A stretch of DNA of 64,000 nucleotides from an uncultured Bifidobacterium sp. (GTDB taxonomy: Bacteria > Bacteroidota > Bacteroidia > UKL13-3), in NCBI GenBank assembly GCA_964529175.1, contig CAZGVO010000003.1, positions 195,120-259,119 of the forward strand, in the 5' to 3' direction. Every line of letters begins with the position of its first letter. Position 1 is the first letter of the stretch. The notes beneath the pieces were generated by a model, which was given only the letters and a program-made list of their open reading frames with translations, was not told where the DNA came from and ran no database searches. Of this stretch, positions 12-46,299 are shown one piece after another. Made by a program: the position numbers and the translations under genes.

Positions 12-1007
12 ATGAACATATACGACATACTAAAGAAAAAAATTGTGATTTTGGATGGTGCAATGGGTACCATGATTCAACGACATAAATTGGAAGAAGC
101 TGATTTTAGGAATGAAGCTTTGGCAAATCACGCGCATCCTTTAAAAGGAAATAATGATCTACTTTCAATTACTCGTCCTGAAATTATTAAAGGCATTCAT
201 CGTTTGTATTTTGAAGCAGGCGCAGATATTGTTGAAACCAATACTTTTAGTGGAACCACTATTGCGCAAGCCGATTATCATTTAGAACATTTGGTAGATG
301 ACATCAATTATTACTCAGCAAAAATAGCCAAAGAGGTAGCCGATGAAATGACTGCCAAAGAACCACATAAACCAAGATTTGTGGCTGGTGCTATGGGACC
401 AACTAACAGAACTTTATCTATAAGCCCAGATGTAAACGACCCAGGTTATAGAGCTACTACTTTTGACGAATTGGTAAAAGCATATAAACAACAAGCTATC
501 AAATTAATTGAAGGTGGTGTAGATATTTTATTGATTGAAACCATTTTTGATACCTTAAATGCAAAGGCTGCCTTATTTGCTGTTGATGAAGTTTTTGAAG
601 AACTTGGAAAACATTATCCAGTAATGATTTCAGGAACTATTACGGATGCATCTGGCAGAACATTATCGGGTCAAACAACGGAGGCATTTTTAATTAGTAT
701 GCAACATGCGCCATTGATGAGTATTGGCTTAAATTGTGCATTAGGAGCAAGTGCTTTACGTCCTTATTTACAAGTAATGTCAACACATTCGCCATTTTAT
801 GTAAGTGCGTATCCAAATGCAGGATTGCCTAATGAGTTTGGACAATACGATGAAAGCCCTGCTGCTATGGCAAAACAAGTGGAAGAATTCTGCAAAGAAG
901 GATTGGTAAATATTTTAGGTGGCTGTTGCGGAACTACTCCTGATCACATCAAAGCTATTGCAGAAATGGCAGCGAAGTATGAACCGAGGATTATAGTTAA
1001 TAGTTAA
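12..1007 (+). CDS. Homocysteine S-methyltransferase domain protein, the N-terminal homocysteine-binding module of a split cobalamin-dependent methionine synthase
   Basis: The 331-aa ORF starts with ATG at 12. Its sequence matches the Hcy-binding barrel of MetH/MmuM, with motifs DGAMGT and [11 protein letters not shown]. It lies immediately upstream of the remaining MetH domains. Confidence 0.85.
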
Positions 1008-1075
1008 TAGACCATGGACCATAGAAAGTTTATGGTTAAGAGACCTTGGACCATAGAAGATTTATGGACAATAGT
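1008..1075. repeat. Palindromic repeat cluster (family GACCATGG/CCATAG) left of the four-helix-bundle gene
   Basis: The sequence is tagaccatggaccatagaa...gaccttggaccatagaa. It overlaps the last codons (IVNS, stop) of the upstream ORF. Confidence 0.55.
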
Positions 1076-1113
1076 TTGAATAATTACTTATACTAAAACA
1101 AGGAAACTATAGC

Positions 1114-1464
1114 ATGTTTAAGTTCGAAAATTTAGAAGTTTGGAAAAAGTCGATTGAGTTAGTTGTAAAGGTTGAAAGCGTAGTAAAAAAATTCCCAAAA
1201 GAAGAAATTTATGTGCTTACATCTCAAATGAAAAGAGCTTGTGATTCAATTTCTTTAAACATAGCTGAAGGCTCTCAAGGACAGTCTAATCCTGAATTTT
1301 CTAGATTTTTAGGTTATGCAATGCGCTCTTGCATAGAGGTTGTAGGCTGTATTTACATTGCTCAAGCAAGAAAAATAATTGATGAAGAAGATTTTAAAGA
1401 TATTTATAATGATTGTGAAACATTAGTAAAAATGATCCAATCGCTGAGAAACAAAATTAAGTGA
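1114..1464 (+). CDS. Four-helix-bundle protein (23S rRNA intervening-sequence protein family, TIGR02436-like)
   Basis: The 116-aa protein carries the characteristic N-terminus FENLEVWKKSIELVV...ISLNIAEGS. It is flanked on both sides by short palindromic repeats. Confidence 0.75.
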   Translation: MFKFENLEVWKKSIELVVKVESVVKKFPKEEIYVLTSQMKRACDSISLNIAEGSQGQSNPEFSRFLGYAMRSCIEVVGCIYIAQARKIIDEEDFKDIYNDCETLVKMIQSLRNKIK

Positions 1465-1467
1465 GTA

Positions 1468-1604
1468 GTTTATGGACGATAGTCAATGGTAGATGGACGA
1501 TAGACCATAGACTATGGTCCAATATAATAAAACAAAAAATACCATTGTCTATCGACTATAGTCTATAAACTATTGTCTATCGTCCATGGTCTATCAACAA
1601 AAAT
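1468..1604. repeat. Palindromic repeat cluster right of the four-helix-bundle gene
   Basis: The motifs are ggacgatagaccatagactatggtc and ctatcgtccatggtctatc. These are mutually inverted and enclose a nested palindrome, ccattgtctatcgactatagtc. Confidence 0.55.
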
Positions 1605-1606
1605 AA

Positions 1607-4279
1607 ATGATCAAAGATTATACATTACGCCTTTCGGGCTTGGAGCCATTGGTAATTACTAAAGATACCAATTTTGTAAATGTGGGAGAAAGAACCAATG
1701 TAACGGGTTCTAAAATGTTTTTACGCCTTATACGTGAAGGTAATTTTGAAGAAGCTTTGGCTGTTGCTCGTCAGCAGGTAGAAGGCGGTGCGCAAATTAT
1801 CGACATCAATATGGATGAAGGAATGATTGATGGTGTGGAATCAATGGTTCGTTTTTTAAATTTGATTGCATCTGAACCAGATATTTCTCGCGTTCCTATC
1901 ATGATTGATTCTTCTAAATGGGAAATTATAGAAGCAGGATTAAAATGTGTGCAAGGTAAATGTGTGGTAAATTCTATTTCGCTAAAAGGTGGCGAAGAAG
2001 AATTTATCCGCCAAGCAAAAATTGTAAAACGTTTTGGAGCAGCAGTAATTGTAATGCTTTTTGACGAACAAGGACAAGCAGATAACTACGAACGTAGAAT
2101 AGAAATTGCAGAAAGAGCTTATCGAATCTTAACGGAAAAAGTTCATTTCCCTGCGGGTGATATTATTTTTGACCCTAATATTTTTCCAGTGGCTACCGGC
2201 ATGGAAGAGCACAGAAAAAATGCTTTAGATTTCTTTAACGGAACAAAATGGATTAAAGAAAATTTGCCAGGTGCAAAAGTTAGTGGTGGCGTTTCAAACG
2301 TTTCTTTTTCATTCAGAGGAAACGATAAAGTGCGCGAAGCCATGCACTCAGCATTTTTATTTCATGCCATCAATAACGGAATGGATATGGGTATTGTAAA
2401 TCCAAGTCAATTGGAAGTTTACGATCAAATAGATAAAGAATTATTAGAACATGTAGAGGATGTTTTATTAGATAGAAGAGACGATGCAACGGAACGTTTA
2501 TTGGAACTAGCCGAACGTGTTAAAGGAAAAGGAAAAGAAACTGCGGTTGACAACGAATGGCGCAAAGGAACAGTTCAAGAGCGTTTGAGTCATGCTTTAA
2601 TAAAAGGAATTGTTGAGTTTGTAGAAGCAGATACCGAAGAGGCAAGGTTAATTTACGACAAACCACTTGAAGTGATTGAAGGCCCTTTAATGGCCGGAAT
2701 GAACATTGTGGGTGATTTGTTTGGTGCTGGAAAAATGTTTTTACCGCAGGTAGTTAAAAGTGCACGTGTAATGAAAAAAGCCGTGGCTGTTTTGATGCCT
2801 TACATGGAAGAAGAAAAACGCAAAAATGGCAACATGACTACCAACCAAGGTAAAATATTGATGGCAACTGTTAAAGGCGATGTGCATGATATTGGAAAAA
2901 ATATTGTAGGTGTGGTTTTGGCTTGTAATAACTACGAAATTATTGACATTGGTGTAATGGTTCCTGCCGATAAAATTTTGGAAACTGCCATTAAAGAAAA
3001 TGTAGATGTAATTGGTTTAAGTGGATTAATTACACCAAGCTTGGACGAAATGGTGCATGTTGCCAAAGAAATGGAACGTTTAGGAATGAAAATACCATTA
3101 TTAATTGGAGGTGCTACCACCAGCCGTGCGCACACAGCAGTAAAAATTGACCCTGTTTACAGCGGACCAGTTGTACATGTGTTAGATGCAAGTAAAAGCG
3201 TGCCTGTGGCGGCAAGTTTAATTAGTCCTGACCAGCGACCAGCTTCGGAAAAGAAATTTAAAGACGAGTATGAACAATTTAGAATTGATTATAAAAACCG
3301 TAAAAAAGATAAAAACTCGGTTGATTTAGCAAAAGCAAGAACCAATAAAATTCCTGTAAGTTTTGATAATATAGTTGCACCTAAATTTTTAGGAACAAAA
3401 GTGTTTGATAATTTCCCCTTGGAAGAATTGCGCCAACGCATTGATTGGACTCCTTTCTTTTTAACATGGGAATTAGTAGGTCGTTATCCTGCCATTTTTG
3501 ATGATGAAATAGTTGGTGTAGAAGCCAAAAAATTATTTGACGATGCCAATAAAATGCTCGATAAAGTAATTAACGAAAAACTACTTACCGCACGCGGTGT
3601 AATTGGTTTTTATGAAGCAAATTCTGAAGGTGATGATATAATTATTTCCAACAACGGACAACCAACAACTTTCAACTATTTGCGCCAACAAGGCGAAAAA
3701 GCTGATGGACAACCTTACTTATGTTTGGCAGATTTTGTTGCTCCGAAAGAAAGTGGCAAAAAAGATTATTTAGGCATGTTTGCCGTAACAGCAGGAATTG
3801 GAATTGAGCCTTTGGTAGAAGCTTACGAAAAAGACCATGACGATTACAATAGCATTATGATTAAAGCCATTGCCGATAGATTGGCCGAGGCTTTTGCTGA
3901 AAAAATGCACGAATTGGTGAGAAAAGAATATTGGGGTTTTGCACCTAACGAGCAATTAACCGATGATGAAATAATCAGAGAAAAATACAATAGCATTCGC
4001 CCTGCGCCAGGTTACCCTGCCTGCCCAGACCATACCGAAAAACGTAAGTTGTTTGACATTTTGCAAGCTGAAACCAATGCAGGAATTACCTTAACGGAAA
4101 ACTTTGCCATGTATCCGGCTTCGGCAGTAAGTGGTTTTTATTTTGCCAATGAGGCAAGTAAATATTTTGCGGTAGGTAAAATTCAAAAAGACCAAGTTGA
4201 AGAATATGCCAAACGCAAAAACGTAAGCATTGACTACGTTGAAAAATGGTTAGCTCCTAATTTGGGATATGATAATTAG
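1607..4279 (+). CDS. metH: Methionine synthase (B12-dependent) carrying the pterin-binding, cobalamin-binding and AdoMet-activation domains
   Basis: The 890-aa protein begins RLSGLEPL...[12 protein letters not shown], which is colinear with E. coli MetH from the Hcy/pterin interdomain linker onwards. It contains the DxHDIGK B12-binding motif and the C-terminal activation domain. Confidence 0.9.
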
Positions 4280-4372
4280 TTGATAGTTGGTAGTTAATGG
4301 TTGTTAGAAATTACCGTCAGACGGTTATCACATTAACAACACATTTGGAATTTAATCATTAATTATAAAAAT

Positions 4373-4410
4373 AAAAACCGCTTTAGTGTAAAACTAAGCG
4401 GTTTTTTTTA
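4373..4410. terminator. Rho-independent terminator hairpin downstream of metH
   Basis: The hairpin is an A-run, then ccgctttag, a loop, ctaagcgg, and a T-run. Confidence 0.6.
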
Positions 4411-5451: not shown

Positions 5452-8340
5452 TTAAGTTAGGGGTATGGTTAGTGTTACGGTAGTTCCTGTTGCATTTCCA
5501 ATTTCGTTGTAATTATCGGTAATAATTACGGCTACAGGCTTGTTTTTACTTTGATTTAAAATTTCTAAACGTTTTTTATTGGCTTGGGTAGAAAAAGACT
5601 GATGCTTACTATCTTTTATTTTATTCAATTGTTCGGAACGTTTACGGCCCACTCCATTATCGTTAATAGTTACTATCAAATTATTTTCAATACAATCAAA
5701 TACAACAGATAAATTTTTCTTTCCTTCCTTGTGAAGCAAGCCATGTTTAATAGCATTTTCTACATATGGCTGCACCAACATGGGTGGTATTTTATCCATT
5801 TCTTTATCTAAATCTACACAAATTTTTATTTCAAAGTAAAAGTCGTCCTCAAAACGCATTTGTTCCAAAGCAAGGTATAGATTAAGTGCTTCTATTTCTT
5901 CGCCTATGGTTATGGTATCTTTTTCACTCATTTCAAGTATCATACGTGTTAGTTTCGAAAACTTTGACAGGTAATTGCTTGCATTTTTTTTATCGTTAAT
6001 AAAAATATATGATTGAATGGTATTGAGCGCATTGTAAAAAAAATGAGGATTCATTTGCGACTTGATAGAAGTTAATTTTGATTTATTTAACTCATTTTCC
6101 AAAGTCATTTTTTCGGTTATTAGTTTATTCTTTTTTATTAACAAACTAATTTGCCATTTATAATATCCTAGTCCTGATATAGTTAAAACTGCAACTATTA
6201 ATAACAAAAACCACCATTGTAACCAAAAAGGTTTATTAATTTTAAAATTTACAATAGCATTGGTAAGTAAGGTGTTATTAATTTTAAACTGAATGGTATA
6301 ATTACCTGGCGAGAGCGAGGCAAACTGAAGAGAACGCATATTGGGCATGGTACTAACCCAGTTTTCGTTGTTTATTTTGTAAGCAATATTTTGGTGCTGA
6401 AATTGAGCATAATTAAGCAAAGCATAATTAATAATAATATTGTTTTCTTGGTACGATAACGACTCGCTTATGGAGGCATACTGCTTGCCGTTTATTTGAA
6501 AATTTTCTATTACAAAATTAGGCTTAACTTCCAATTTATTTATTCCATTTATTGTTACACTTATTATGTTATTATGTGTTAAAATATGAAGTTGATTCCC
6601 CTCTAAAATAAAATCATTTATTTCGCTTGTTTTTAGCTGTATTGATAATTGATAAATGGTTTTATAGATGTTTTCTGTATCAATAATTATAAATTTATCA
6701 TTACCCAAAATACACAAGTAATTACCAAAAGCTTTTATTTTTTTCACTTCTTTTATATCAATATTTGGTAAGTTATTAAGTGTATTAAATAAAGTATCGT
6801 TTGTAATGGTAATTAACTCACCTTTAGTAGTTAGTGCCAATATAAACGATTTAAAAGCTATTAACTTCGAAACAAAAACACTTTGGTTGTTTTGCTTTAT
6901 TTCAGTTTGATTATAAATGGTTTGTTTATGTAGACCAATATTTGAACCGCAATAAATAGCATTTTCAATTGGACTATATGCTACTGTTTTGGCCCTGATA
7001 CTATTTATAAACCTGGCCACCAAATCATTCCCTGCTTTTAGTTTTTTGTTATAAAAATCATCCCATTTTGATGGAATATTTTTATTGGCAATTGGCGAAA
7101 TAACCAAATTAGCGGAACCACTTGTGGCCATTGCATAATATTTATGATCAATTTTTACTATTGATTTTAAAGCAAAATCATCATGTTTAATAAAACCAAA
7201 TGGATTTGATTTAAAAATACTAGTACCTAACGAAGAAGTAAACAATACATCTAAACTCGAATCGTAATAAGTATAATAAATTGATGCATTGCTAGGATTG
7301 GTAAATAGTTTTCTAAGAGGTTCAAAGTTGTTATTCAATGACACTACCTCGTTATTCTGAGTAAAAAGTACATAGCCTCCTTTTGTTTTTTCAAACAAAC
7401 TTGGTTCATAATTTTCTATGGCAACAAATGTGGTTTGAAGCGAAGGAATAATGAATATACCCTTATTAACCGATGATACCCAATAATTATTATCTCTATC
7501 TTTTATAACGCATGAAAGACTTTGATTTTTAAAATAATGTTTAAATCCATTTTTACCAAATACGTGAGCACCATTAGGGGCTAAAATCCAATAATCATTA
7601 TCAATTAAATGCAAATTTTGAATAAGTTTTGGCCCTCTTATTTTAAAAGCAGGTTGCGACTTATCTTTTTCAGTAAAATACAGTTGTTCGTTTTCATTTT
7701 CTCGAGCAGTTAAAACCAAGTTTTTATTGGTAGCATATATTTGATTGTTTTTTTCATTGCTTGCAATTTGTACCCGAGTAGCTTCTAATTTTAAATTAGA
7801 AGTAGTTTTATAAAGCACCTTATTGGCTGTAAAATAATAGTTGTTGTTAAAACAAGCAGTATTATTTATATCTTTAATAGTAGAAAAAAAAATGGGTATT
7901 GTTTTAATTAATTGTAGGGTATTTATATTGTAAACATCAATTCCATTGTATTGTAATAAGAATAAATGATTATTGGTTATTCCATAAGCAAAAAAGCCAA
8001 TTGGTTTGTTTTGTTTTAATGCATGTAGCGAATCATTTTCAATGTAGTAACAGTAACCATCAAAATTTTGGTACCAAATTCTGCCTAAAACATCTTCTTT
8101 TAAATTACTACCAGCTGCTGAGGTTTGATTTGGGTTTTTGTAGGTTTTAAAATTATACCCATCGTACCTGCTTATACCCTCTTGGCTTGCTATCCAAATA
8201 TACCCTTTTTTATCTTGTAAAATATTATATACATTATTTGATGGTAAACCTTTTGTATCGTTCAATAGGGTAAAATACGGCTGTTGAGCCTTAACTAAAA
8301 TGGGCAGTACAAATGATAAAATAATTACAATCGCTCTCAA
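5452..8340 (-). CDS. Sensor histidine kinase of the LytS/YehU type with a periplasmic two-component-regulator beta-propeller and a Y_Y_Y domain
   Basis: The 962-aa protein has a signal peptide, repeated propeller-like blades, a Y_Y_Y domain and one transmembrane segment. These are followed by a His_kinase domain (NPHFFYNALN) and an HATPase_c domain. The start codon is TTG. The gene is adjacent to the LytTR regulator. Confidence 0.8.
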   Translation of the reverse strand: MRAIVIILSFVLPILVKAQQPYFTLLNDTKGLPSNNVYNILQDKKGYIWIASQEGISRYDGYNFKTYKNPNQTSAAGSNLKEDVLGRIWYQNFDGYCYYIENDSLHALKQNKPIGFFAYGITNNHLFLLQYNGIDVYNINTLQLIKTIPIFFSTIKDINNTACFNNNYYFTANKVLYKTTSNLKLEATRVQIASNEKNNQIYATNKNLVLTARENENEQLYFTEKDKSQPAFKIRGPKLIQNLHLIDNDYWILAPNGAHVFGKNGFKHYFKNQSLSCVIKDRDNNYWVSSVNKGIFIIPSLQTTFVAIENYEPSLFEKTKGGYVLFTQNNEVVSLNNNFEPLRKLFTNPSNASIYYTYYDSSLDVLFTSSLGTSIFKSNPFGFIKHDDFALKSIVKIDHKYYAMATSGSANLVISPIANKNIPSKWDDFYNKKLKAGNDLVARFINSIRAKTVAYSPIENAIYCGSNIGLHKQTIYNQTEIKQNNQSVFVSKLIAFKSFILALTTKGELITITNDTLFNTLNNLPNIDIKEVKKIKAFGNYLCILGNDKFIIIDTENIYKTIYQLSIQLKTSEINDFILEGNQLHILTHNNIISVTINGINKLEVKPNFVIENFQINGKQYASISESLSYQENNIIINYALLNYAQFQHQNIAYKINNENWVSTMPNMRSLQFASLSPGNYTIQFKINNTLLTNAIVNFKINKPFWLQWWFLLLIVAVLTISGLGYYKWQISLLIKKNKLITEKMTLENELNKSKLTSIKSQMNPHFFYNALNTIQSYIFINDKKNASNYLSKFSKLTRMILEMSEKDTITIGEEIEALNLYLALEQMRFEDDFYFEIKICVDLDKEMDKIPPMLVQPYVENAIKHGLLHKEGKKNLSVVFDCIENNLIVTINDNGVGRKRSEQLNKIKDSKHQSFSTQANKKRLEILNQSKNKPVAVIITDNYNEIGNATGTTVTLTIPLT

Positions 8341-8697: not shown

Positions 8698-11600
8698 ATG
8701 AAAAAAATACTATTATTATTTTATTGCTTATGCACCATTTATGGATTGCAAGCACAAACACCCATTACCAATTGGGAGTATTCAATTGGCGATAATGGAG
8801 GAATTGAGCAAATTAAATCCTCGGCTTACGATGAAGCCGGAAACTTGTATGTAGCAGGCCATTTTTATGGAACGGTAGATTTAGACCACGGAACTGGAGC
8901 CTATTTACTAAGCGCTGCCGGAAGTTACGATGCTTTTGTGGCCAAATACAATTCGTTTGGTCAAATTTTATGGGCAGTACGTCTGGGAGGAACCATGGCC
9001 GAGTCAGTTAATCATTTATCGGTAGCAAATGGCTATGTGCTTTTAACAGGTTTTTTTCAAGGAACCATGAATGTATATGCTCCAAATTTTACAGCACCTT
9101 TAACCTCAGTTTCCAGTTCGTCCGATATTTTTATAGTACGTTTAGGAACAGATGGTTTATTTTATGCTAATGGCGCTTTTAAAATTGGTATGGGTGGAAA
9201 CGATGATGGAAAATGTGTAAAATCTGATGCTGCTGGAAACATTTATTTATCAGGCTTGTACTCAAGTCCTAATAATAATACCAATGTAAACTTTAACGTA
9301 CTTGGTGGTACCAATAATTTATTGGCTGCTGGTAGTGAAGATGGTTTTATAGTAAAATACAATAGCAATTTTGTATTACAATGGGTAAAATCGTACGGTG
9401 GAGGTTCTTTTAATGATGCAGTATTAACCATGGATATAGATAATAACCAAAATGTATATGCAGCTGGTTATTTTAATGGTACAAATGCAAGTTTTAACAA
9501 TAGTATATTCCTTACATCAGTTGGAGGTGCCGATGCTTTTATTTCAAAAATTGCAGCTAATGGAAATACCATATGGGCTAAACGAATAGGTGGTGGAAAT
9601 GGCGATGTAATTTCTACCATTAAACTTAATGGAAAAGGTGTAATATATGCTGGCGGTAACTTTAATGGATTAGCGAATTTAAACCCAAATGGAACCGCAC
9701 AAAACTTTACCGCTGTAGGTGGCGATGCCTTTATAAGTAAACTTGATACCAACCAAGCAACCGCTTTATGGATTAAACAATTTGGGGGAAGCGGGCCTGA
9801 TAATTTAAATGGACTTGATTTAGATACATTAGGAAATGTGTATACAACTGGCTCTTTTATAGGTTCGGCTGAGTTTCCTATTGGCATTTCAGCATCGGCA
9901 TTAAATAGTGGCAGTTGGAAAGATATTTTTGTAAGTAAACTAAATACCAATGGTGGTTTTGTTTGGTCCAAATCAATGGGTACTATCTTAGAAGATGATG
10001 GCTACAGTATTTCAGTTACTGCAAATGGTAACTATGCTTATATTACAGGAAGCAATCCTACATTTGGGCATGGTTACATGGCCAAAATTGGTGCTTGTGG
10101 CGAGTTAAAACCCATAATTGGTCTAACAAAATTATGTTCAAATACACAAAGGATTTATGCTGTAGATTCAGTTATAGGAGCTACTTCGTATGTTTGGACT
10201 TTACCTGCTGGTTGGGTTGGTACATCTAATACACGCAGCATTACAGTTACTCCAAGTGCTAACAGCGGAAATATTACTGTTAATGCCATTACTGCTTGTG
10301 GAGCTGGTTTTTCTCGTTCATTAAATATTAATTATGGAACTACAAATTTAGATAATAACTTAGTAAGGTATTGGCTTGCCAATGAAAACGACAACAATAA
10401 AGACATTAAGAATAACTTTGGCTTAACTTTGGTAAACACAGTTAAAGATACTGCTATGCACGGAACAGTTAATGGGGCTTATCGTATTTCAAATAATGCT
10501 GGTTTTATTCAATTGCAACCCACTGCCAATTTACCAACAGGCGCTACTTCTATTTCGTTATGGTATTATTACCAAAGTAATGGTGGAGGTGCAAATGTGG
10601 TATTAGGAAGTAACGGAACTGCTTTACCTGCATCGCATCCACTTATGTTAATTGATAATGCTTCGGCTACTTTATTCCCTTGGTCTAATACAGGTGCTGC
10701 CATAGGTAGTGGTGTTACCATAGCTCAAAATACTTGGCATCATATAGTATTAACGCGCAATGGAGCCAACTTTACTTTTTATGTAAATGGTGTTTTGGCC
10801 TACAGTGGCAATAATTTATCTGCTTCTAATTTTGATAGAATTGGAAACAATCGTCCTGGATTTGAAATACAAGGCGCTACAGGTAAGTTTGACGATATTA
10901 AAATTTATAATACCATTATCACCGAAGCACAGGTCAAATCGCTTTACGACTTTGGAAGCATTAAATCTGTTGATTTACTGACATCAGGTTGTAAAAATAA
11001 AACCATTTCATTTCAAGCTTTTTCAAGTAATAACAATGTCACTTACGGATGGAAGTTAAATGGAACGGTAGTAGGAAGTAGTTTACCAACTTTTGTTAAA
11101 ACGGCTGCATTAACCGATTCAGCAATTTCTGTTAGCGTAAATAGCCAATGTTTTGAAGAAACTATTTCTAAAAGTTTTAAAATTAATAGTATAGATAGTG
11201 TACAAATTATTAGCACTGATTGTGGCATTAAAGTTGGTAATAAAACATATATTGCTTCAGGCAATTATATTGATACTTTAGTTAATCAATTTGGCTGCGA
11301 TAGTATTGTATTTTTAAACCTAACTATTAGTAATAATCAACTTACCAATTTAAGCACTAATTTAATTAGGTATTGGACCTTAAATGCACAAGATTCAGCC
11401 AAGGATTTAACCAATAATTTTGTATTAAACAAATCATCGGGAATACTTTTTACCTCCGATAGGTTTGGAAACCCAAATACAGCCCAATTTATTCCGGCAT
11501 CGCCAAGCCAACAATTTACACCGGCAGTAAATATTCCAGCCAATGATTTTACCATTTCATTTTGGTATCAATTTACTTCCTCCACTTCAACCAATACCAG

Positions 11601-15059: not shown

Positions 15060-15154
15060 TTATCACTCTTTGCATGACAACTAATCTCCAAATCTAAAAA
15101 TCAACAACTCTCTAAATTCAATCTATGGTCTATTAACCATAAACCAACTAAAAA

Positions 15155-17272
15155 TTACTTCAAACTTCTAGCCAACCAATCAAAGAAAACTCGTTGCCAA
15201 AGCACACTGTTTTGAGGTTTGGTTACCCAATGGTTTTCGTCAGGAAAGTATAAAAACCTACTTGGAATCCCTTTAATTTGAGCTGCGGTAAAAGCTTCCA
15301 TTCCTTGGCCTAGTGGTACTCTAAAATCTTTTTCGTTATGAATAACTAACATAGGTGCATCCCAATTTTGTACAAATTTATGTGGCGATGCATCAAAGTT
15401 ATTTGGATGTGAGGTTTGGCTCCAATACGGACCTTTATTATCGTGGTTGGCAAAAAACATTTCTTCGGTAGTGCCATACCAACTTTCCATATTAAACATA
15501 CCACAATGAGCTATAAAAGTTTTAAAACGCTTGTTATGATTGCCTGCTAACCAATAAACCGAAAATCCGCCAAAGCTTGCCCCTACTGCGCCAAGCTTAT
15601 CTTTATCTACATAACTTTCTTTGCATAAATCGTCAATAGCGCTTAAATAATCGCGCATACATTGTCCACCATAATCGCCTGTAATTTGGTTATTCCAATC
15701 GCTTCCATGGCCTGGCATTCCACGTCTGTTTGGTGCAATTACTATATAACCATTTGCAGCCATTAGTTCAAAATTCCATCTATAACTAAAAAACTGTGTT
15801 AATGCACTTTGTGGACCACCTTGACAATACAATAAAGTTGGGTATTTTTTGGTAGGATCGAAATTTGGCGGATAAATTACCCAAGCTAACATATCGGCAC
15901 TATCGGTAGTTTTTACCATGCGTTTGCGCACCTCGCCCATGGCTACATTGTTTAAAACATCTTTATTAGTAAAAGTAATTTGTTTTTCTTTACCTGTTTG
16001 CAAGTCAATTTCAAACAACTCGGCAGGCATTGAAATACTCATTTTATTAATAACTACCTTACCCGATTTTAAACTTCCATTTACGCTAAATGCACCATAA
16101 TCCCAATCGCCTACAGTTATAATTTTAATACGTTCAGTTTCCTTTTTTACATCAAAGTTATAGGCAAACAATTGTTTGGTGCCTTGGTAAGGAGCTGTAA
16201 AATAAACTACTTTTCCATCGCTACTGATTGAAAAATTTTCAATTGGGTAATCAAAATTAGCTCTGCTAGTTAATACAGTAAAGGGTTTAAGGGTAACTGG
16301 TTTGTCTTTAGCCGAAATAATAAAATCAATGTTTAAATAAACCAATCTATTCAAATCACTTTCGTTGCCTTCGCCTTCCATGCTTTGCCAAAATATTTTT
16401 TTTCCGTCAGGTGTAAACTGAGGATTTTTATCATAACCTTTATTGCTAACCGAAATATTAATAGTTTGTTTGGTAGCAAAATTGTATAAATAAATATCGC
16501 TATTGGTAGAAATGGCCTCGGCTGTTCCTGTTTGTTTACGGCTGTTGTAAGCTATTCGGGTTCCATCAGGACTCCAGTTAAACTCATCATCATCGCCATG
16601 AGGTTGAAGCGGACAATCAAATTTTTCGTCTTGCATTAAATCCTTTCCATCGCCCATTACACCATAAGTTAAATCGGCTACAAAAAGATGGCTGTAAGCA
16701 TAATCGTGCCAACTATCCCAATGACGGTAAAATAATCCATCAATAATTCTGGCATTACATTTATCTAAATCAGGATATAAATCTTTTACCTCATTATCCA
16801 ATTTAACATCGGCCGTGTAGGCTATTTTATTCATAGCTGGCGAGTATTTATAACCACTTACACCACCTCTTACAAAACTTAATTGGGTAATTTCAGTTCC
16901 ATCTATGTTCATTTCCCAAATTTGCGCATCGCCACTTTTGGTACACAAATAACTTATTTTTTTGCCATCGGGCGTAAAGCGTGCACTAAAGGCATTTACC
17001 TCTGGTGTGGTTATTTGTTTCTTTTGGCCGGTGGCTAAAGTTAGCAAATAATAAATATTGGTGCTTTTATTGGTTTTTACATCGTAATGCCTCACGCTGT
17101 AAAGTACTGTTTTGCCATCGGCCGAAAGTTGAGGCTCGCTTACACGGCCTAGTTGCCAAAGTTTTTCAATGGTTAAAGTTTGCACTGGCTGAGCTTTTAC
17201 GGTATTATTTACAAAAAATAAATTGGCTGCAATACCTGCAAATACACAAATTGATTTTAAATTTAATTTCAT
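15155..17272 (-). CDS. S9-family serine peptidase (prolyl oligopeptidase or dipeptidyl aminopeptidase-like) with an N-terminal beta-propeller
   Basis: The 705-aa protein has a signal peptide and TolB/WD40-like repeats. It carries the GxSxGG catalytic motif (GASFGGF) and C-terminal Asp/His. Confidence 0.8.
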   Translation of the reverse strand: MKLNLKSICVFAGIAANLFFVNNTVKAQPVQTLTIEKLWQLGRVSEPQLSADGKTVLYSVRHYDVKTNKSTNIYYLLTLATGQKKQITTPEVNAFSARFTPDGKKISYLCTKSGDAQIWEMNIDGTEITQLSFVRGGVSGYKYSPAMNKIAYTADVKLDNEVKDLYPDLDKCNARIIDGLFYRHWDSWHDYAYSHLFVADLTYGVMGDGKDLMQDEKFDCPLQPHGDDDEFNWSPDGTRIAYNSRKQTGTAEAISTNSDIYLYNFATKQTINISVSNKGYDKNPQFTPDGKKIFWQSMEGEGNESDLNRLVYLNIDFIISAKDKPVTLKPFTVLTSRANFDYPIENFSISSDGKVVYFTAPYQGTKQLFAYNFDVKKETERIKIITVGDWDYGAFSVNGSLKSGKVVINKMSISMPAELFEIDLQTGKEKQITFTNKDVLNNVAMGEVRKRMVKTTDSADMLAWVIYPPNFDPTKKYPTLLYCQGGPQSALTQFFSYRWNFELMAANGYIVIAPNRRGMPGHGSDWNNQITGDYGGQCMRDYLSAIDDLCKESYVDKDKLGAVGASFGGFSVYWLAGNHNKRFKTFIAHCGMFNMESWYGTTEEMFFANHDNKGPYWSQTSHPNNFDASPHKFVQNWDAPMLVIHNEKDFRVPLGQGMEAFTAAQIKGIPSRFLYFPDENHWVTKPQNSVLWQRVFFDWLARSLK

Positions 17273-24905: not shown

Positions 24906-25598
24906 ATGAAAATAGGTGTATTAATATTTCCGGGAAGTAATTGCGATAAAGACGCAGTTTGGGCATTTCAAAACATGTTTGGCCAAGAAGTAGTAGAACT
25001 TTGGCATAAAGATACTGATTTACAAAATGTAGATTTGGTGTTTTTACCAGGTGGTTTTAGCTATGGCGATTATTTACGCAGCGGTGCAATTGCCCGTTTT
25101 TCGCCTATTATGCAAAGTGTAATTGAATTTGCCAATAATGGCGGATTGGTTTGGGGCGTTTGTAATGGTTTTCAAATTTTATGCGAAAGCGGTTTATTGC
25201 CTGGCGCATTGATGCATAACGACCATCAAAAGTTTAATTGCAAAAATGTGTTTATAAAAACCGAAACCAATAACAGTAAAATTACCAGTTTAAATGAAGT
25301 AGGAAAAGCTTTGAAAATTCCAATTGCACATGGAGAAGGAAGATTCTATTGCAACGATGAATTATTGCAAGATTTAAAAGCAAACGATCAAATTTTATTT
25401 AGATACTGCGATGAAAATGGAAACGTTTCTGCTGAAACCAATCCTAATGGCGCATTGGATAATATAGCTGGAATTTGTAATAAAAACCGCAATGTGTTTG
25501 GCATGATGCCTCACCCAGAACGTGCGGTAGATGGTGATATTTACAATACTGACGGACGCATTATGTTCGAAAGTTTGTTGCAGTTGGTTAATAGTTAA
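24906..25598 (+). CDS. purQ: Phosphoribosylformylglycinamidine synthase subunit PurQ (glutaminase)
   Basis: The 230-aa protein is a class-I glutamine amidotransferase with GVCNGFQ and HPE motifs. Confidence 0.85.
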
Positions 25599-25640
25599 TA
25601 GACGATAGACCATGGTCAATTAACTATGGACTATTATCTA
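25590..25640. repeat. Third locus of the palindromic GACCATGGTC/GACGATAG repeat family, wedged between the convergent purQ and dtd stop codons
   Basis: The sequence gttaatagttaatagacgatagaccatggtc...ctatggacta shares its first 17 nt with the copy at 1001-1017. The repeat supplies the codons VNS and a TAA-TAG double stop to purQ. Confidence 0.6.
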
Positions 25641-30605: not shown

Positions 30606-30624
30606 TTTTATTTCTTTATCATAA

Positions 30625-30662
30625 AAAAGGGGCTGTTTCAATTGAAACAGCCCCTTTTTATT
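30625..30662. terminator. Bidirectional rho-independent terminator between nadD and the giant T9SS gene
   Basis: The hairpin aaaaaaggggctgtttc...gaaacagcccctttttt has an A-run on one side and a T-run on the other. Confidence 0.7.
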
Positions 30663-46220: not shown

Positions 46221-46237
46221 CCAAAAAGTTCTTAAAT

Positions 46238-46273
46238 AAAGAAAGCTTGTTTTTTCTAAAACAAGCTTTCTTT
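46238..46273. terminator. Bidirectional terminator between the MFS gene and the rhodanese-thioredoxin gene
   Basis: The hairpin is aaagaaagcttgtttt...aaaacaagctttcttt. Confidence 0.65.
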
Positions 46274-46299
46274 ATATTATACTGATTATCAGCAATTTG

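What the first reader, a model, noticed from the sequence alone, without database searches (positions are those of the whole stretch)
1008..1604. Four-helix-bundle (rRNA-IVS-type) gene behaves like cargo of a palindromic repeat element; the same repeat family recurs at 25590-25640
The three loci share gttaatagttaatagac(c/g)at.gac and palindromic cores (gaccatggtc; ccatagactatgg). At two loci the element starts inside the last codons of the upstream gene (metH-N and purQ both end ...VNS then TAA TAG). Only the metH locus carries the 4HB ORF between two inverted copies. This suggests a MITE/REP-like family that can mobilise or nucleate 4HB genes. These genes are known to be multicopy in Bacteroidota but their mobility mechanism is unclear.
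Basis: seen in the sequence. Interest (0 to 1): 0.55.

Follow-up and report, generated by a model that had tools for sequence, protein, structure and literature searches.

The report
Four-helix gene in heptamer-repeat cassette
A small four-helix-bundle gene sits in the middle of a split methionine-synthase gene, bracketed by inverted runs of its own 7-base repeat; close relatives swap this gene-plus-repeats unit for other such units at the same spot, and it resembles the old, unexplained intervening sequences of 23S rRNA, here in a protein-coding operon.

Summary
The "palindromic repeat" is arrays of a degenerate 7-nt unit (GAC/GTC-N-A-Y-R). One array lies left of the four-helix-bundle (4HB) ORF. 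A 47-nt-arm hairpin lies right of it. ORF-less copies follow purQ, dpp5 and metH-C.

The architecture is general. In 80 related genome loci, 59% of 4HB genes have inverted flanks stronger than 99% of control genes. Repeat type follows the 4HB protein clade, not the genome or site: GTC heptamers, GTC octamers or AGC heptamers.

At the same metH-N|metH-C junction, near relatives carry one of:
- this 4HB
- a 30%-identical 4HB with different repeats
- a GxxExxY gene with CACAGAG repeats
- 4HB remnants
- bare hairpins
- nothing
- an unsplit metH (in more distant relatives)

So gene and repeats behave as one exchangeable cassette, and they also persist vertically for long periods. The ORF is under purifying selection (dN/dS 0.09-0.14).

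The closest known relative is the 23S rRNA intervening sequence, which has an S23p ORF, heptamer repeats, and a terminal stem cut by RNase III. I found no transposase, no target duplication and no defined MITE ends, so the mobility mechanism is unknown. I rate it a new variant of a known kind, interest about 0.7.

The parts
12..1007 (+). metH-N, the homocysteine S-methyltransferase module of a split methionine synthase. The conserved part ends at 989 (...YEPR). Codons 990-1004 (IIVNS) and the stops TAA TAG lie inside the repeat array.
   Evidence: Pfam PF02574, E 5.5e-100. Tails differ among orthologues right after EPR.
993..1080 (+). Left array of GAC-type heptamers: ATAGTTA x2, ATAGACC, ATGGACC, ATAGAAA and so on. 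They are organised as 2.5 copies of a 32-nt unit (4 heptamers plus 4 nt).
   Evidence: TRF period 7 at 993-1010 and period 32 at 995-1074. Direct-repeat family D2.
1003..1025 (+). Outer inverted-repeat arm, left. It pairs with 1576-1598 and so encloses the ORF.
   Evidence: Pair I6: 23 nt, 91% complementary. The pair forms in the minimum-energy fold of 990-1612, z -5.35.
1081..1113 (+). A/T-rich leader between the left array and the 4HB start codon.
   Evidence: Read from the sequence. In relatives the upstream arm ends a median 39 nt before the ATG.
1114..1464 (+). Four-helix-bundle protein gene, 116 aa (PF05635 / TIGR02436, the S23p/Avd-like fold), under purifying selection.
   Evidence: Family matches. 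AF2 model pLDDT 95.6. Foldseek TM-score 0.96 to 2gsc, 0.83 to 2rld, 0.79 to Avd 4dwl. dN/dS 0.09-0.14.
1466..1520 (+). Proximal right array of GAC-type heptamers. It is the 5' arm of the downstream hairpin.
   Evidence: Pair I1, arm 1472-1518. Fold energy -53.5 kcal/mol, z -8.5.
1521..1540 (+). A-rich loop of the downstream hairpin.
1541..1598 (+). Distal right array of GTC-type heptamers (the reverse complement of the GAC type). It is the 3' arm of the downstream hairpin and also the right outer inverted-repeat arm (1576-1598).
   Evidence: TRF periods 7, 14 and 28 at 1544-1598. Pairs I1 and I6.
1599..4279 (+). A-rich leader followed by metH-C (ATG at 1607), which holds the pterin-binding, B12-binding and activation modules. 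The conserved part begins at RLSGLEPL (1628). The cassette therefore occupies 990-1627, where unsplit relatives have 27-30 nt.
   Evidence: Pfam. Junction census of relatives.
4277..4307 (+). Weak, degenerate heptamer array (TAGTTGA, TAGTTGG, TAGTTAA, TGGTTGT) starting at the metH-C stop codon. A canonical terminator hairpin with a T-run follows at 4374-4410.
   Evidence: TRF. Sequence.
15119..15149 (-). Small ORF-less hairpin of the same unit (GGTTTATGGTTAATAGACCATAGATT), 6 nt after the stop of the dpp5-like gene (15155-17272, - strand).
   Evidence: Match with 3 mismatches. Sequence. Fold z -3.85. NCBIfam Dpp5.
25587..25636 (.). ORF-less hairpin of the same heptamers between the convergent genes purQ and dtd. 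It overlaps the last codons of purQ. It is absent at this site in a relative with 96% identical PurQ.
   Evidence: Exact motif match. Pair I7: arms 25589-25615 and 25610-25636, 78% complementary. Fold z -3.9 (+ strand) and -3.6 (- strand). Relatives L292 and L293.

Best explanation
The region 990-1627 is a 'gene-in-hairpin' cassette of the same kind as the ORF-bearing intervening sequences (IVS) of 23S rRNA. Here it is lodged in a protein-coding operon.

Shown here:
1. A 4HB gene with no detectable promoter or terminator is bracketed by inverted arrays of a short tandem repeat.
2. The repeat type is specific to the 4HB protein clade, not to the site or the genome.
3. Gene and repeats are exchanged as one unit at a fixed site among close relatives.
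4. The unit can stay in place long enough for its protein to diverge to about 70% identity.
5. It decays by internal deletion, leaving arrays plus ORF remnants or bare hairpins.
6. ORF-less hairpins of the same repeat occur elsewhere and turn over quickly.
7. The protein is under purifying selection.
8. The cassette sits exactly in the linker between the homocysteine and pterin modules of MetH. More distant relatives have an unsplit gene at this position.

Inferred:
- The cassette is co-transcribed with the SAM-riboswitch-controlled metH operon.
- The arrays supply stop codons. A 7-nt unit containing TAG rotates through all three reading frames within 21 nt.
- The inverted arrays pair into a long imperfect stem, in RNA or in single-stranded DNA. 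As in rRNA IVSs, this stem may be a processing site for RNase III.
- The pentameric Avd-like 4HB protein recognises its own repeat, roughly one unit per subunit. That recognition would underlie the maintenance or spread of the unit.

How the unit inserts is not known.
For: Anatomy of the window element.

Generality:
- Inverted-flank score has median 20 for 4HB genes against 11 for 733 control ORFs. 59% exceed the control 99th percentile (p 8e-35).
- The bracket is seen in Bacteroidota, Omnitrophota, Planctomycetota and Ratteibacteria loci.
- It is also seen in two viral contigs, L084 and L122.

Clade-specific repeats:
- The heptamer clades score 39 heptamer to 0 octamer. The octamer clade scores 29 octamer to 1 heptamer.
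- The repeat type follows the protein across different contexts and within one contig, L182.
- A third clade has AGC-type heptamers.
- The unrelated GxxExxY family has TTAACCRCAGAG/CACAGAG repeats in all 10 loci seen.

Exchange as a unit: relatives with 87-97% identical MetH-N hold 4HB type A, 4HB type B (28-35% identical) or GxxExxY at the same junction. 4HB identity and MetH-N identity are uncorrelated (rho 0.07).

Persistence: orthologues of 69-97% identity are at the junction despite changed outer synteny. The nearest 4HB relative shares the genomic context in 59 of 62 cases.

Decay: L256, L258 and L266 keep the arrays plus the N- and/or C-terminal codons of a 4HB.

Solo hairpins: 16 sites per 1.1 Mb, for example around yajQ and around the SAM riboswitch. 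The purQ hairpin is lineage-specific.

Selection and rates:
- dN/dS is 0.09-0.14.
- The arrays are the fastest-changing segments, with whole-unit insertions and deletions.
- Hairpin potential is kept in orthologues, z -4.2 to -7.3.

Split gene: 4 fused junctions of 27-30 nt, in frame, against 638 nt here.

No terminator-like site lies in the element, and promoter-like sites are at chance level.

Link to the rRNA IVS: the Coxiella IVS has an S23p ORF preceded by 2-3 tandem GACAGAT heptamers whose copy number varies between strains, a 28-bp terminal stem, and RNase III excision (PMC4990558).

Fold: TM-score 0.96 to the pentameric XCC0516 structure, and 0.76-0.80 to Avd in the DGR ribonucleoprotein.
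Against: - The arms are only about 80% complementary.
- Their mismatches show no excess of G:U-compatible pairs on the sense strand (92 against 115, p 0.13). So nothing here favours an RNA stem over DNA-level symmetry.
- In the window the left array has the same orientation as the proximal right array. Only the distal right array is inverted, so the simple 'ORF in the loop' picture is rearranged here.
- In Coxiella the S23p ORF is decaying and probably untranslated, whereas this ORF is clearly constrained.
- Heptamer arrays of this motif class are far commoner than 4HB genes in viral contigs: 2 of at least 120 array-bearing stretches have one.
- No binding, processing or transposition was observed or can be observed with these tools.
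- No target-site duplication and no clean empty site were found.
- The 80 genome loci are close homologues (54-85% identity) and many are orthologous, so they are not independent samples.
Confidence: 0.6

Rival explanations
1. The repeats are a MITE- or REP-like non-autonomous transposon family, moved in trans by a transposase encoded elsewhere. The family occasionally captures or nucleates 4HB genes as passive cargo.
For: - ORF-less copies occur at the 3' ends of genes.
- The purQ copy is present in the window and absent in a close relative.
- Cassettes are replaced at one site.
- Inverted ends are present.
Against: - Repeat type tracks the cargo protein clade across sites and genomes. Passive capture does not predict this.
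- The ends are variable arrays of 7-8-nt units, with unit gain and loss, rather than fixed terminal inverted repeats.
- No target-site duplication was seen.
- No transposase or RAYT gene lies next to any of about 130 cassettes inspected.
- The cargo is under purifying selection.
Confidence: 0.15
2. This is a REPIN-RAYT-like partnership. The 4HB protein is itself the trans-acting factor that binds the heptamer arrays and spreads or maintains them. The ORF-less hairpins would be its dependants. The gene is inherited mainly vertically, flanked by its own repeats.
For: - Each 4HB clade has its own repeat type.
- Solo hairpins in a genome use the same unit as the resident 4HB gene.
- The gene persists at one locus while the solo hairpins turn over.
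- The family forms a pentameric toroid, and its structural relative Avd sits in a ribonucleoprotein (PMC4990558).
Against: - A 116-aa helical bundle has no catalytic motif for DNA cleavage or joining.
- Solo hairpins are few in the flanks sampled, about 0.15 per 10 kb.
- Arrays are abundant in contigs that show no 4HB gene.
- The cassettes themselves are swapped between lineages, which differs from the strictly vertical inheritance of RAYT genes.
Confidence: 0.2
3. The arrays are host elements, and the small genes are bystanders. On this view the arrays are slippage-generated hairpins that act as mRNA stabilisers, processing sites or insulators at operon junctions. The small genes simply accumulate at such permissive junctions.
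For: - Heptamer arrays and inverted pairs are common in intergenic DNA of several phyla with no known link to 4HB genes (PMC4692102; PMC4679880).
- The arrays sit at gene boundaries, for example around the SAM riboswitch.
- The same junction also hosts unrelated genes: one QueF-like, one receiver domain.
Against: - The repeats change together with the cargo at one and the same junction in near relatives.
- Two different repeat types coexist in one contig, each with its own 4HB clade.
- Both facts tie the repeats to the cargo, not to the host site.
- Short split junctions and fused junctions have no arrays at all.
Confidence: 0.08

Closest known systems
ORF-bearing intervening sequences (IVS) of 23S rRNA (Leptospira, Coxiella, Xanthomonas, Brucella; S23p ORF)
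   Same: - The ORF belongs to the same protein family (PF05635/TIGR02436).
- The ORF is enclosed by complementary termini that can form a long stem.
- Tandem heptamers with a GAC core lie next to the ORF, and their copy number varies between strains (GACAGAT in Coxiella; PMC4990558).
- The element interrupts a functional unit, which keeps working in two pieces.
- Inheritance is mostly vertical, and the origin is unknown.
   Different: - The host site is the junction of two protein-coding ORFs in a riboswitch-controlled operon, not helix 25 or 45 of 23S rRNA.
- The arrays are longer and lie on both sides.
- The ORF is under purifying selection, rather than decaying as in Coxiella.
- RNase III excision is untested here.
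REP/REPIN-RAYT systems
   Same: - A single gene is flanked by inverted copies of a short hairpin-forming repeat.
- ORF-less copies of that repeat are scattered at gene ends.
- Each gene clade is matched to its own repeat type.
- The gene stays at one locus for long periods.
   Different: - The flanked gene is a 116-aa helical bundle, not an IS200/IS605-type Y1 transposase.
- The repeats are arrays of 7-8-nt units rather than a fixed palindrome of about 20-40 nt.
- Whole cassettes are swapped between lineages.
Intergenic heptamer tandem repeats (cyanobacterial STRR, TAACTGA repeats, Xanthomonas GGGAATC and Nostoc GGGGAYT arrays)
   Same: - Period-7 tandem arrays lie in intergenic DNA, often as convergent inverted pairs.
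- Their length varies between close relatives.
- They occur within operons (PMC4679880, PMC4692102).
   Different: - The unit sequences differ.
- Those studies report no associated gene family.
- Here the arrays bracket a specific gene and co-vary with its clade.
Avd, the accessory protein of diversity-generating retroelements
   Same: It has the same fold (TM-score 0.76-0.80) and overlapping Pfam annotation (PF22296 on some homologues). It is a pentamer that works in a nucleic-acid-protein complex.
   Different: There is no reverse transcriptase and no template or variable repeat next to the gene, whose neighbours are metH-N and metH-C. Sequence identity to Avd is only 7-9%.
Integron gene cassettes (ORF plus attC hairpin)
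   Same: Both have a small promoterless ORF followed by an imperfect hairpin. Different cargos are exchanged at one site and are expressed from an upstream promoter.
   Different: - There is no integrase, attI or cassette array.
- The hairpin is built of tandem 7-mers and lacks the R''/L''-L'/R' organisation of attC.
- The repeats lie on both sides and are cargo-specific.

Membership tests
PF05635 / TIGR02436 four-helix-bundle (S23p) protein family | Profile match above the curated cut-off. | tested here: met
   Pfam 123.2 bits against a cut-off of 33.8. TIGR02436 115.2 bits against 24.
PF05635 / TIGR02436 four-helix-bundle (S23p) protein family | Four-helix-bundle fold like XCC0516 and BT_0352. 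| tested here: met
   AF2 model pLDDT 95.6 with four long helices. TM-score 0.96 to 2gsc and 0.83 to 2rld. Sequence match to 2gsc, E 8e-20.
PF05635 / TIGR02436 four-helix-bundle (S23p) protein family | Homopentameric toroid. | not tested
   Only inferred. The entries 2gsc and 2rld hold five chains each, and PMC4990558 cites the pentamer.
23S rRNA intervening sequence (IVS) | Inserted in a helix of the 23S rRNA gene. | tested here: not met
   The element lies between metH-N and metH-C. No rRNA or other Rfam family is found in the window.
23S rRNA intervening sequence (IVS) | Complementary termini that form a stem enclosing the insert. | tested here: met
   1003-1025 pairs with 1576-1598, 91% complementary. 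The pair is present in the minimum-energy fold, z -5.35.
23S rRNA intervening sequence (IVS) | S23p-family ORF, with tandem heptamers next to it (Coxiella type). | tested here: met
   Compared with PMC4990558.
23S rRNA intervening sequence (IVS) | Excision from the transcript by RNase III. | not testable with these tools
   This needs RNA-end mapping or an in-vitro cleavage assay. The G:U mismatch test was neutral.
MITE | Defined terminal inverted repeats shared by all copies. | tested here: not met
   The ends are variable arrays. Copies differ in the number and sequence of units, even between loci whose 4HB proteins are 97% identical.
MITE | Target-site duplication flanking the insert. | tested here: inconclusive
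   No direct repeat is seen at the boundaries 989/990 and 1598/1599, or around 25587-25636. No clean empty site was available for comparison.
REP/REPIN-RAYT | The flanked gene encodes a Y1 (IS200/IS605-like) transposase. | tested here: not met
   The flanked gene is PF05635. No other domain is present.
REP/REPIN-RAYT | Dispersed extragenic copies of the same repeat in the same genome. | tested here: inconclusive
   There are 3 ORF-less sites in 64 kb here, and 16 sites in 1.1 Mb of relatives' flanks. The whole source genome was not available.
Diversity-generating retroelement (Avd component) | Adjacent reverse transcriptase and template/variable repeat pair. | tested here: not met
   The neighbours are metH-N and metH-C in the window and in every orthologous locus inspected.
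Integron cassette | attC site with R''/L''-L'/R' organisation and a GTTRRRY core, plus an integrase or cassette array. | tested here: not met
   The hairpin is a tandem 7-mer array. It is a single cassette between housekeeping genes. The attC structure was judged by eye only.
Anti-phage defence systems (PADLOC) | Match to a defence-system protein model. | tested here: not met
   No PADLOC family matches at E <= 0.01.

The most novel reading that the evidence does not exclude
TIGR02436 four-helix-bundle genes, and in parallel the TIGR04256 GxxExxY nuclease-fold genes, define a class of self-contained 'gene-in-hairpin' cassettes that has not been described. On this reading:
- Each protein clade recognises its own flanking 7-8-nt tandem repeat.
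- The units colonise transcribed junctions: rRNA helices, operon spacers and interdomain linkers.
- They replace one another at such sites and seed the ORF-less heptamer hairpins long noted in Bacteroidota, Cyanobacteria and Xanthomonas.
- They can split genes, as with metH into metH-N and metH-C.

If so, the 23S rRNA IVS would be one special case of this class.
Probability: 0.3. Interest if true: 0.85.

Novelty: new variant of a known kind. Interest (0 to 1): 0.7.

Why it matters
- **An old open question.** The origin and function of rRNA intervening sequences and of their S23p ORFs have been open for about 30 years (PMC4990558).
- **A very large family with no known function.** The 4HB profile finds 23,867 clusters at 50% identity.
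- **An unexplained repeat class.** Heptamer arrays are over-represented in bacterial intergenic DNA, and no gene family has been linked to them (PMC4692102, PMC4679880).
- **What this locus adds.** The three belong together. The gene and its clade-specific repeats form one exchangeable unit.
- **A tractable test system.** One conserved junction occurs in nature in many states: unsplit, split, bare hairpin, remnant, and at least three alternative cassettes.
- **A testable route to gene fission.** Insertion into the MetH interdomain linker could have split the gene.
- **Concrete experiments.** Protein-repeat binding, RNase III mapping and cassette transfer can all be tested directly.

Tried and rejected
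- **Rfam.** No family matches in the window at gathering thresholds. Only sub-threshold miRNA-like hairpin hits fall in 950-1650. It is not a known RNA family.
- **Terminator or promoter.** No terminator-like site lies in the element. Sigma-70-like promoter sites are at chance level, 16 found against 11.9 +/- 3.7 in shuffles. That scan does not model Bacteroidota promoters. The operon's real terminator is at 4374-4410.
- **G:U bias test for a sense-strand RNA stem.** Neutral, 92 against 115.
- **Going from arrays to 4HB genes.** At least 120 viral stretches carry four consecutive ATNGWCN units. Only 2 have a PF05635 gene next to the array. The other adjacent ORFs are mostly phage structural proteins.
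- **Protein-based scans of viral contigs.** Scans for 4HB and for GxxExxY gave nothing usable.
- **A separate history for the cassette.** dS between the window and L124 is lower for the 4HB gene (0.13) than for metH-N (0.44). Sliding-window identity shows a general mosaic, so I draw no conclusion.
- **Strict co-divergence of 4HB and MetH-N.** Rejected, rho 0.07.
- **Defence-system membership.** None.
- **Literature.** Eight full-text searches found no paper that links PF05635/TIGR02436 or GxxExxY genes to flanking tandem repeats outside the Coxiella IVS. The library lacks most subscription journals.
- **Source genome.** The exact 4HB protein is found only on three short Logan contigs.
- **Wasted or faulty calls.** One search printed nothing. 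The last sequence folded used wrong coordinates.
Full report
**1. What is in the window**

The window has 33% G+C. Three ORFs matter here.
- ORF 12-1007 is the homocysteine S-methyltransferase module of methionine synthase, here called metH-N (PF02574).
- ORF 1607-4279 carries the pterin-binding, B12-binding and activation modules, here called metH-C.
- Between them, ORF 1114-1464 encodes a 116-aa PF05635/TIGR02436 four-helix-bundle (4HB) protein.

An AlphaFold model of the 4HB protein has pLDDT 95.6 and four long helices. It superposes on XCC0516 (2gsc, TM-score 0.96), BT_0352 (2rld, 0.83) and the DGR protein Avd (0.76-0.80). It is the only such gene in the 64 kb.

**2. The observation**

None is expected by chance. 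The palindromic cores are present. Both metH-N and purQ end VNS-TAA-TAG.

The repeat is better described as arrays of a degenerate 7-nt unit. The unit reads ATRGWCN in one register and GAC/GTC-N-A-Y-R in another. The GAC form and the GTC form are reverse complements.

The order of parts is:
- left array 993-1080 (GAC type, 2.5 copies of a 32-nt unit made of four heptamers plus 4 nt)
- a 33-nt leader
- the ORF
- proximal right array 1466-1520 (GAC type)
- an A-rich loop
- distal array 1541-1598 (GTC type)
- an A-rich leader and the metH-C start codon

The two right arrays form a hairpin with 47-nt arms, 81% complementary, -53.5 kcal/mol, z -8.5. The distal array also pairs with the left array (1003-1025 with 1576-1598, 91%). 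This pairing encloses the ORF in the minimum-energy fold of the whole segment, z -5.35.

ORF-less copies of the unit lie at three places:
- 25587-25636, between the convergent genes purQ and dtd
- 15119-15149 (minus strand), after a dpp5-like gene
- weakly at 4277-4307, after metH-C

All of them share the unit.

**3. Is the bracket a general property of these genes?**

A scan of one genome per species with a 4HB alignment gave 80 loci. They are mostly Bacteroidota, with some Omnitrophota, Planctomycetota and Ratteibacteria.

I aligned 200 nt upstream of each 4HB gene against the reverse complement of 200 nt downstream. The median score was 20, against 11 for 733 control ORFs in the same loci. 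59% of 4HB genes exceed the control 99th percentile and 76% exceed the 95th (Mann-Whitney p 8e-35). The upstream arm ends a median 39 nt before the start codon. The downstream arm starts a median 20 nt after the stop. By eye, the flanks are short tandem units upstream and their complement downstream.

These loci are close homologues and many are orthologous, so the effective sample is smaller than 80. Even so, the pattern recurs in at least 34 distinct genomic contexts. It also appears in two viral contigs, where a 4HB gene is bracketed by ATTGACA and ATTGTCA arrays.

The converse does not hold. Only two have a PF05635 gene beside the array.

**4. The repeats belong to the cargo, not to the site**

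On a tree of the 4HB proteins, one set of clades has heptamers of the GTC/GAC-N-A-Y-R type (39 loci heptamer, 0 octamer). Another clade has octamers of the GTCNGNAA type (29 octamer, 1 heptamer).

The repeat type follows the protein across different neighbourhoods. It also separates two 4HB genes within one contig, L182. A third, deeply divergent clade has AGC-type heptamers: TAGCCAT and similar upstream, GCCAATAGCCAACAGC downstream.

An unrelated small-gene family shows the same architecture with its own repeats. All ten GxxExxY loci seen (TIGR04256, E about 1e-41) carry CACAGAG- or CGCAAAG-type units in inverted orientation around or beside the gene. Most show TTAACCRCAGAG and related units upstream and CTCTGYGGTTAA downstream. 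One locus, L134, has only a downstream hairpin.

**5. The metH junction in relatives**

Sixty-five metagenome loci show both sides of the junction, with MetH-N 66-97% identical to the window's. Between the conserved ...EPR and RLSGLEPL they hold:

| Junction state | Loci |
|---|---|
| Unsplit gene, 27-30 nt in frame (the most distant relatives) | 4 |
| Short split, no repeats | 22 |
| Intermediate spacer | 20 |
| Intact 4HB | 12 (plus 4 on truncated contigs) |
| GxxExxY gene | 5 |
| QueF-like gene | 1 |
| Receiver-domain gene | 1 |

Several intermediate spacers are bare hairpins. Three (L256, L258, L266) keep the arrays plus the first and/or last codons of a 4HB, namely MAFTFENLKVWQRA... and ...IQALRNSIR*.

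In the window the same interval is 638 nt (990-1627). The MetH-N tail IIVNS* is array-encoded, and orthologues end differently right after EPR. From my own knowledge of the E. coli MetH sequence, the split lies in the linker [20 protein letters not shown] between the first two modules.

**6. Resident or mobile? Both**

Evidence for long residence:
- Orthologues of the window's 4HB (69-97% identical) sit at this junction in relatives whose outer synteny differs.
- Across all contexts, the nearest 4HB relative shares the context in 59 of 62 cases.
- At the junction, the nearest 4HB relative is among the three nearest MetH-N relatives in 24 of 31 loci.

Evidence for exchange:
- Over the whole set, 4HB identity and MetH-N identity are uncorrelated (rho 0.07).
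- Relatives with 87-93% identical MetH-N carry a 4HB that is only 28-35% identical, with AGC-type repeats.
- Relatives with 96-97% identical MetH-N carry GxxExxY with CACAGAG repeats.

So complete units are exchanged at a fixed site. Whether this happens by a site-specific process or by homologous recombination in the flanking metH genes cannot be told here.

The solo hairpin after purQ is absent in a relative with 96% identical PurQ. That relative has two other ORFs at the site and a PurQ ending LVAAK instead of LVNS.

Other recurrent homes of 4HB cassettes are:
- the spacer between a carbon-nitrogen hydrolase gene and a gene whose product I read as agmatine deiminase, labelled aguB|aguA from the protein sequences and not checked against a profile
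- the spacer that I read as purK|purE, also labelled from the protein sequences

**7. Constraint and rates**

dN/dS for the 4HB gene is 0.09-0.14, against 0.014-0.04 for metH-N. The protein is therefore functional.

The arrays are the least conserved segments between the window and its closest relatives, and they differ by whole-unit gains and losses. Hairpin potential is nevertheless kept, z -4.2 to -7.3.

**8. How it probably works**

Neither scan gives evidence for a terminator or a promoter inside the element: there is no terminator-like site, and promoter-like sites are at chance level. A SAM riboswitch precedes metH-N in all five related loci scanned with Rfam. The window starts just after that position. 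I therefore infer that the cassette is co-transcribed with the operon.

A 7-nt unit containing TAG puts a stop codon in every reading frame within 21 nt. That would explain why the upstream ORF always ends inside the array.

The closest documented system is the ORF-bearing IVS of 23S rRNA. In Coxiella, an S23p ORF is preceded by two or three tandem GACAGAT heptamers whose number varies between strains. It is enclosed by a 28-bp terminal stem and is excised by RNase III (PMC4990558). By analogy, the inverted arrays here may form a processing stem.

My one test of this was neutral. Mismatches between the arms show no excess of G:U-compatible pairs on the sense strand (92 against 115). The arms are only about 80% complementary.

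The clade-specific repeats suggest that the protein recognises its own repeat. The family forms a pentameric toroid (PMC4990558), and its structural relative Avd is part of a DGR ribonucleoprotein. Recognition remains an inference. How the unit inserts is unknown: I saw no transposase, integrase or target duplication.

**9. Comparison with what is known, and novelty**

The element fails the defining site criterion of an rRNA IVS. It fails the MITE criterion of fixed terminal repeats, the RAYT criterion of REP systems, the reverse transcriptase and repeat criteria of DGRs, and the attC and integrase criteria of integrons. It shares the working anatomy of the IVS and, at the level of logic, of REPIN-RAYT pairs.

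Heptamer arrays and their inverted pairs have been described in Xanthomonas, Nostoc, Beggiatoaceae and Bacteroidetes without any associated gene (PMC4692102; PMC4679880). Eight full-text searches found no paper connecting 4HB or GxxExxY genes to flanking repeats beyond the Coxiella IVS. The library does not cover most subscription journals.

I therefore rate this a new variant of a known kind. There is about a 0.3 chance that it represents a broader undescribed class of cassettes.

**10. Limits**

- The source genome is not available; the exact protein is found only on three short contigs. Genome-wide copy number and target preference could not be tabulated.
- The related loci are phylogenetically clustered.
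- All functional statements are inferences from sequence.

Noticed in passing
L211:3979-4640 and L212:3979-4583 (also L227, L263/L289, L134:4391-4774, L296-L299 around 10001-10400): GxxExxY (TIGR04256/PF13366) genes carry their own inverted repeats. Most are bracketed by TTAACC(A/G)CAGAG and CACAGAG or CGCAAAG units upstream and CTCTG(T/C)GGTTAA downstream; L134 has only a downstream hairpin. In L211 and L212 this cassette replaces the 4HB cassette at the metH junction of organisms whose MetH-N is 96-97% identical to the window's.
   Followed up: partly
L213-L216, L223, L286 (metH junction): A second 4HB clade, only 28-35% identical to the window's protein, occupies the same junction in relatives with 87-93% identical MetH-N. 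It has AGC-core heptamers (TAGCCAT or TGGCTTT types) instead of GAC-core ones.
   Followed up: partly
L282, L284, L287, L290 (fused); L230, L250, L254 and others (31-nt split): metH occurs unsplit (27-30 nt in-frame linker) in the most distant relatives. In many others it is minimally split, with overlapping ATGnnTAA and no repeats. The order of events (split first, or cassette first) is open.
   Followed up: partly
L256, L258, L266 (metH junction, 142-205 nt): These are internally deleted 4HB pseudogene remnants. The arrays are kept together with the first and/or last codons of the ORF.
   Followed up: yes
L129:8260-8860 and L132:1700-2045: The SAM riboswitch (RF00162) upstream of metH-N is itself flanked on both sides by hairpins built from the same heptamers. 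L129 also has three tandem copies of a roughly 80-nt unit, each containing an array.
   Followed up: partly
L187:5040-5145 and about 5660-5790: A yajQ-like gene is flanked on both sides by complete ORF-less hairpins of the octamer type (AGTCCGAAAG and CTTTCGGACT). The same contig has a 4HB gene with that repeat type.
   Followed up: no
L283 and L228 (metH junction): Unrelated small genes occupy the same junction: a QueF-type preQ1 synthase homologue preceded by a TGTTGAC array, and a receiver-domain ORF without arrays.
   Followed up: no
L189, L210 and 29-37 other loci of L131-L210: 4HB cassettes recur between genes that I read, from the protein sequences only, as purK|purE and as N-carbamoylputrescine amidase|agmatine deiminase. 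These are spacers inside functionally linked gene pairs. The downstream gene is co-directional in 28 of 34 distinct contexts.
   Followed up: partly
L062, L005, L008, L114, L122 and other viral contigs: Some viral contigs carry the same heptamer array (for example ATTGACA or ATCGTCY) in many intergenic regions within 10 kb, often beside structural genes such as scaffold proteins. This suggests a wider role for such arrays in phages.
   Followed up: no
L292:2197-3006: In a relative with 96% identical PurQ, two ORFs without Pfam matches (53 and 189 aa, the latter lipoprotein-like by eye) lie between purQ and dtd. The window has only the 39-nt hairpin spacer there.
   Followed up: no
window 30624-30659 and 46236-46275: Two perfect palindromes (20-nt and 18-nt arms) lie in intergenic DNA next to ORF ends. 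They look like ordinary bidirectional terminators and are unrelated to the heptamer family.
   Followed up: no
P0421: A 1277-aa protein in the representative library matches the 4HB profile in 18 separate stretches. It may be a tandem fusion or an assembly or gene-calling artefact across repeated cassettes.
   Followed up: no
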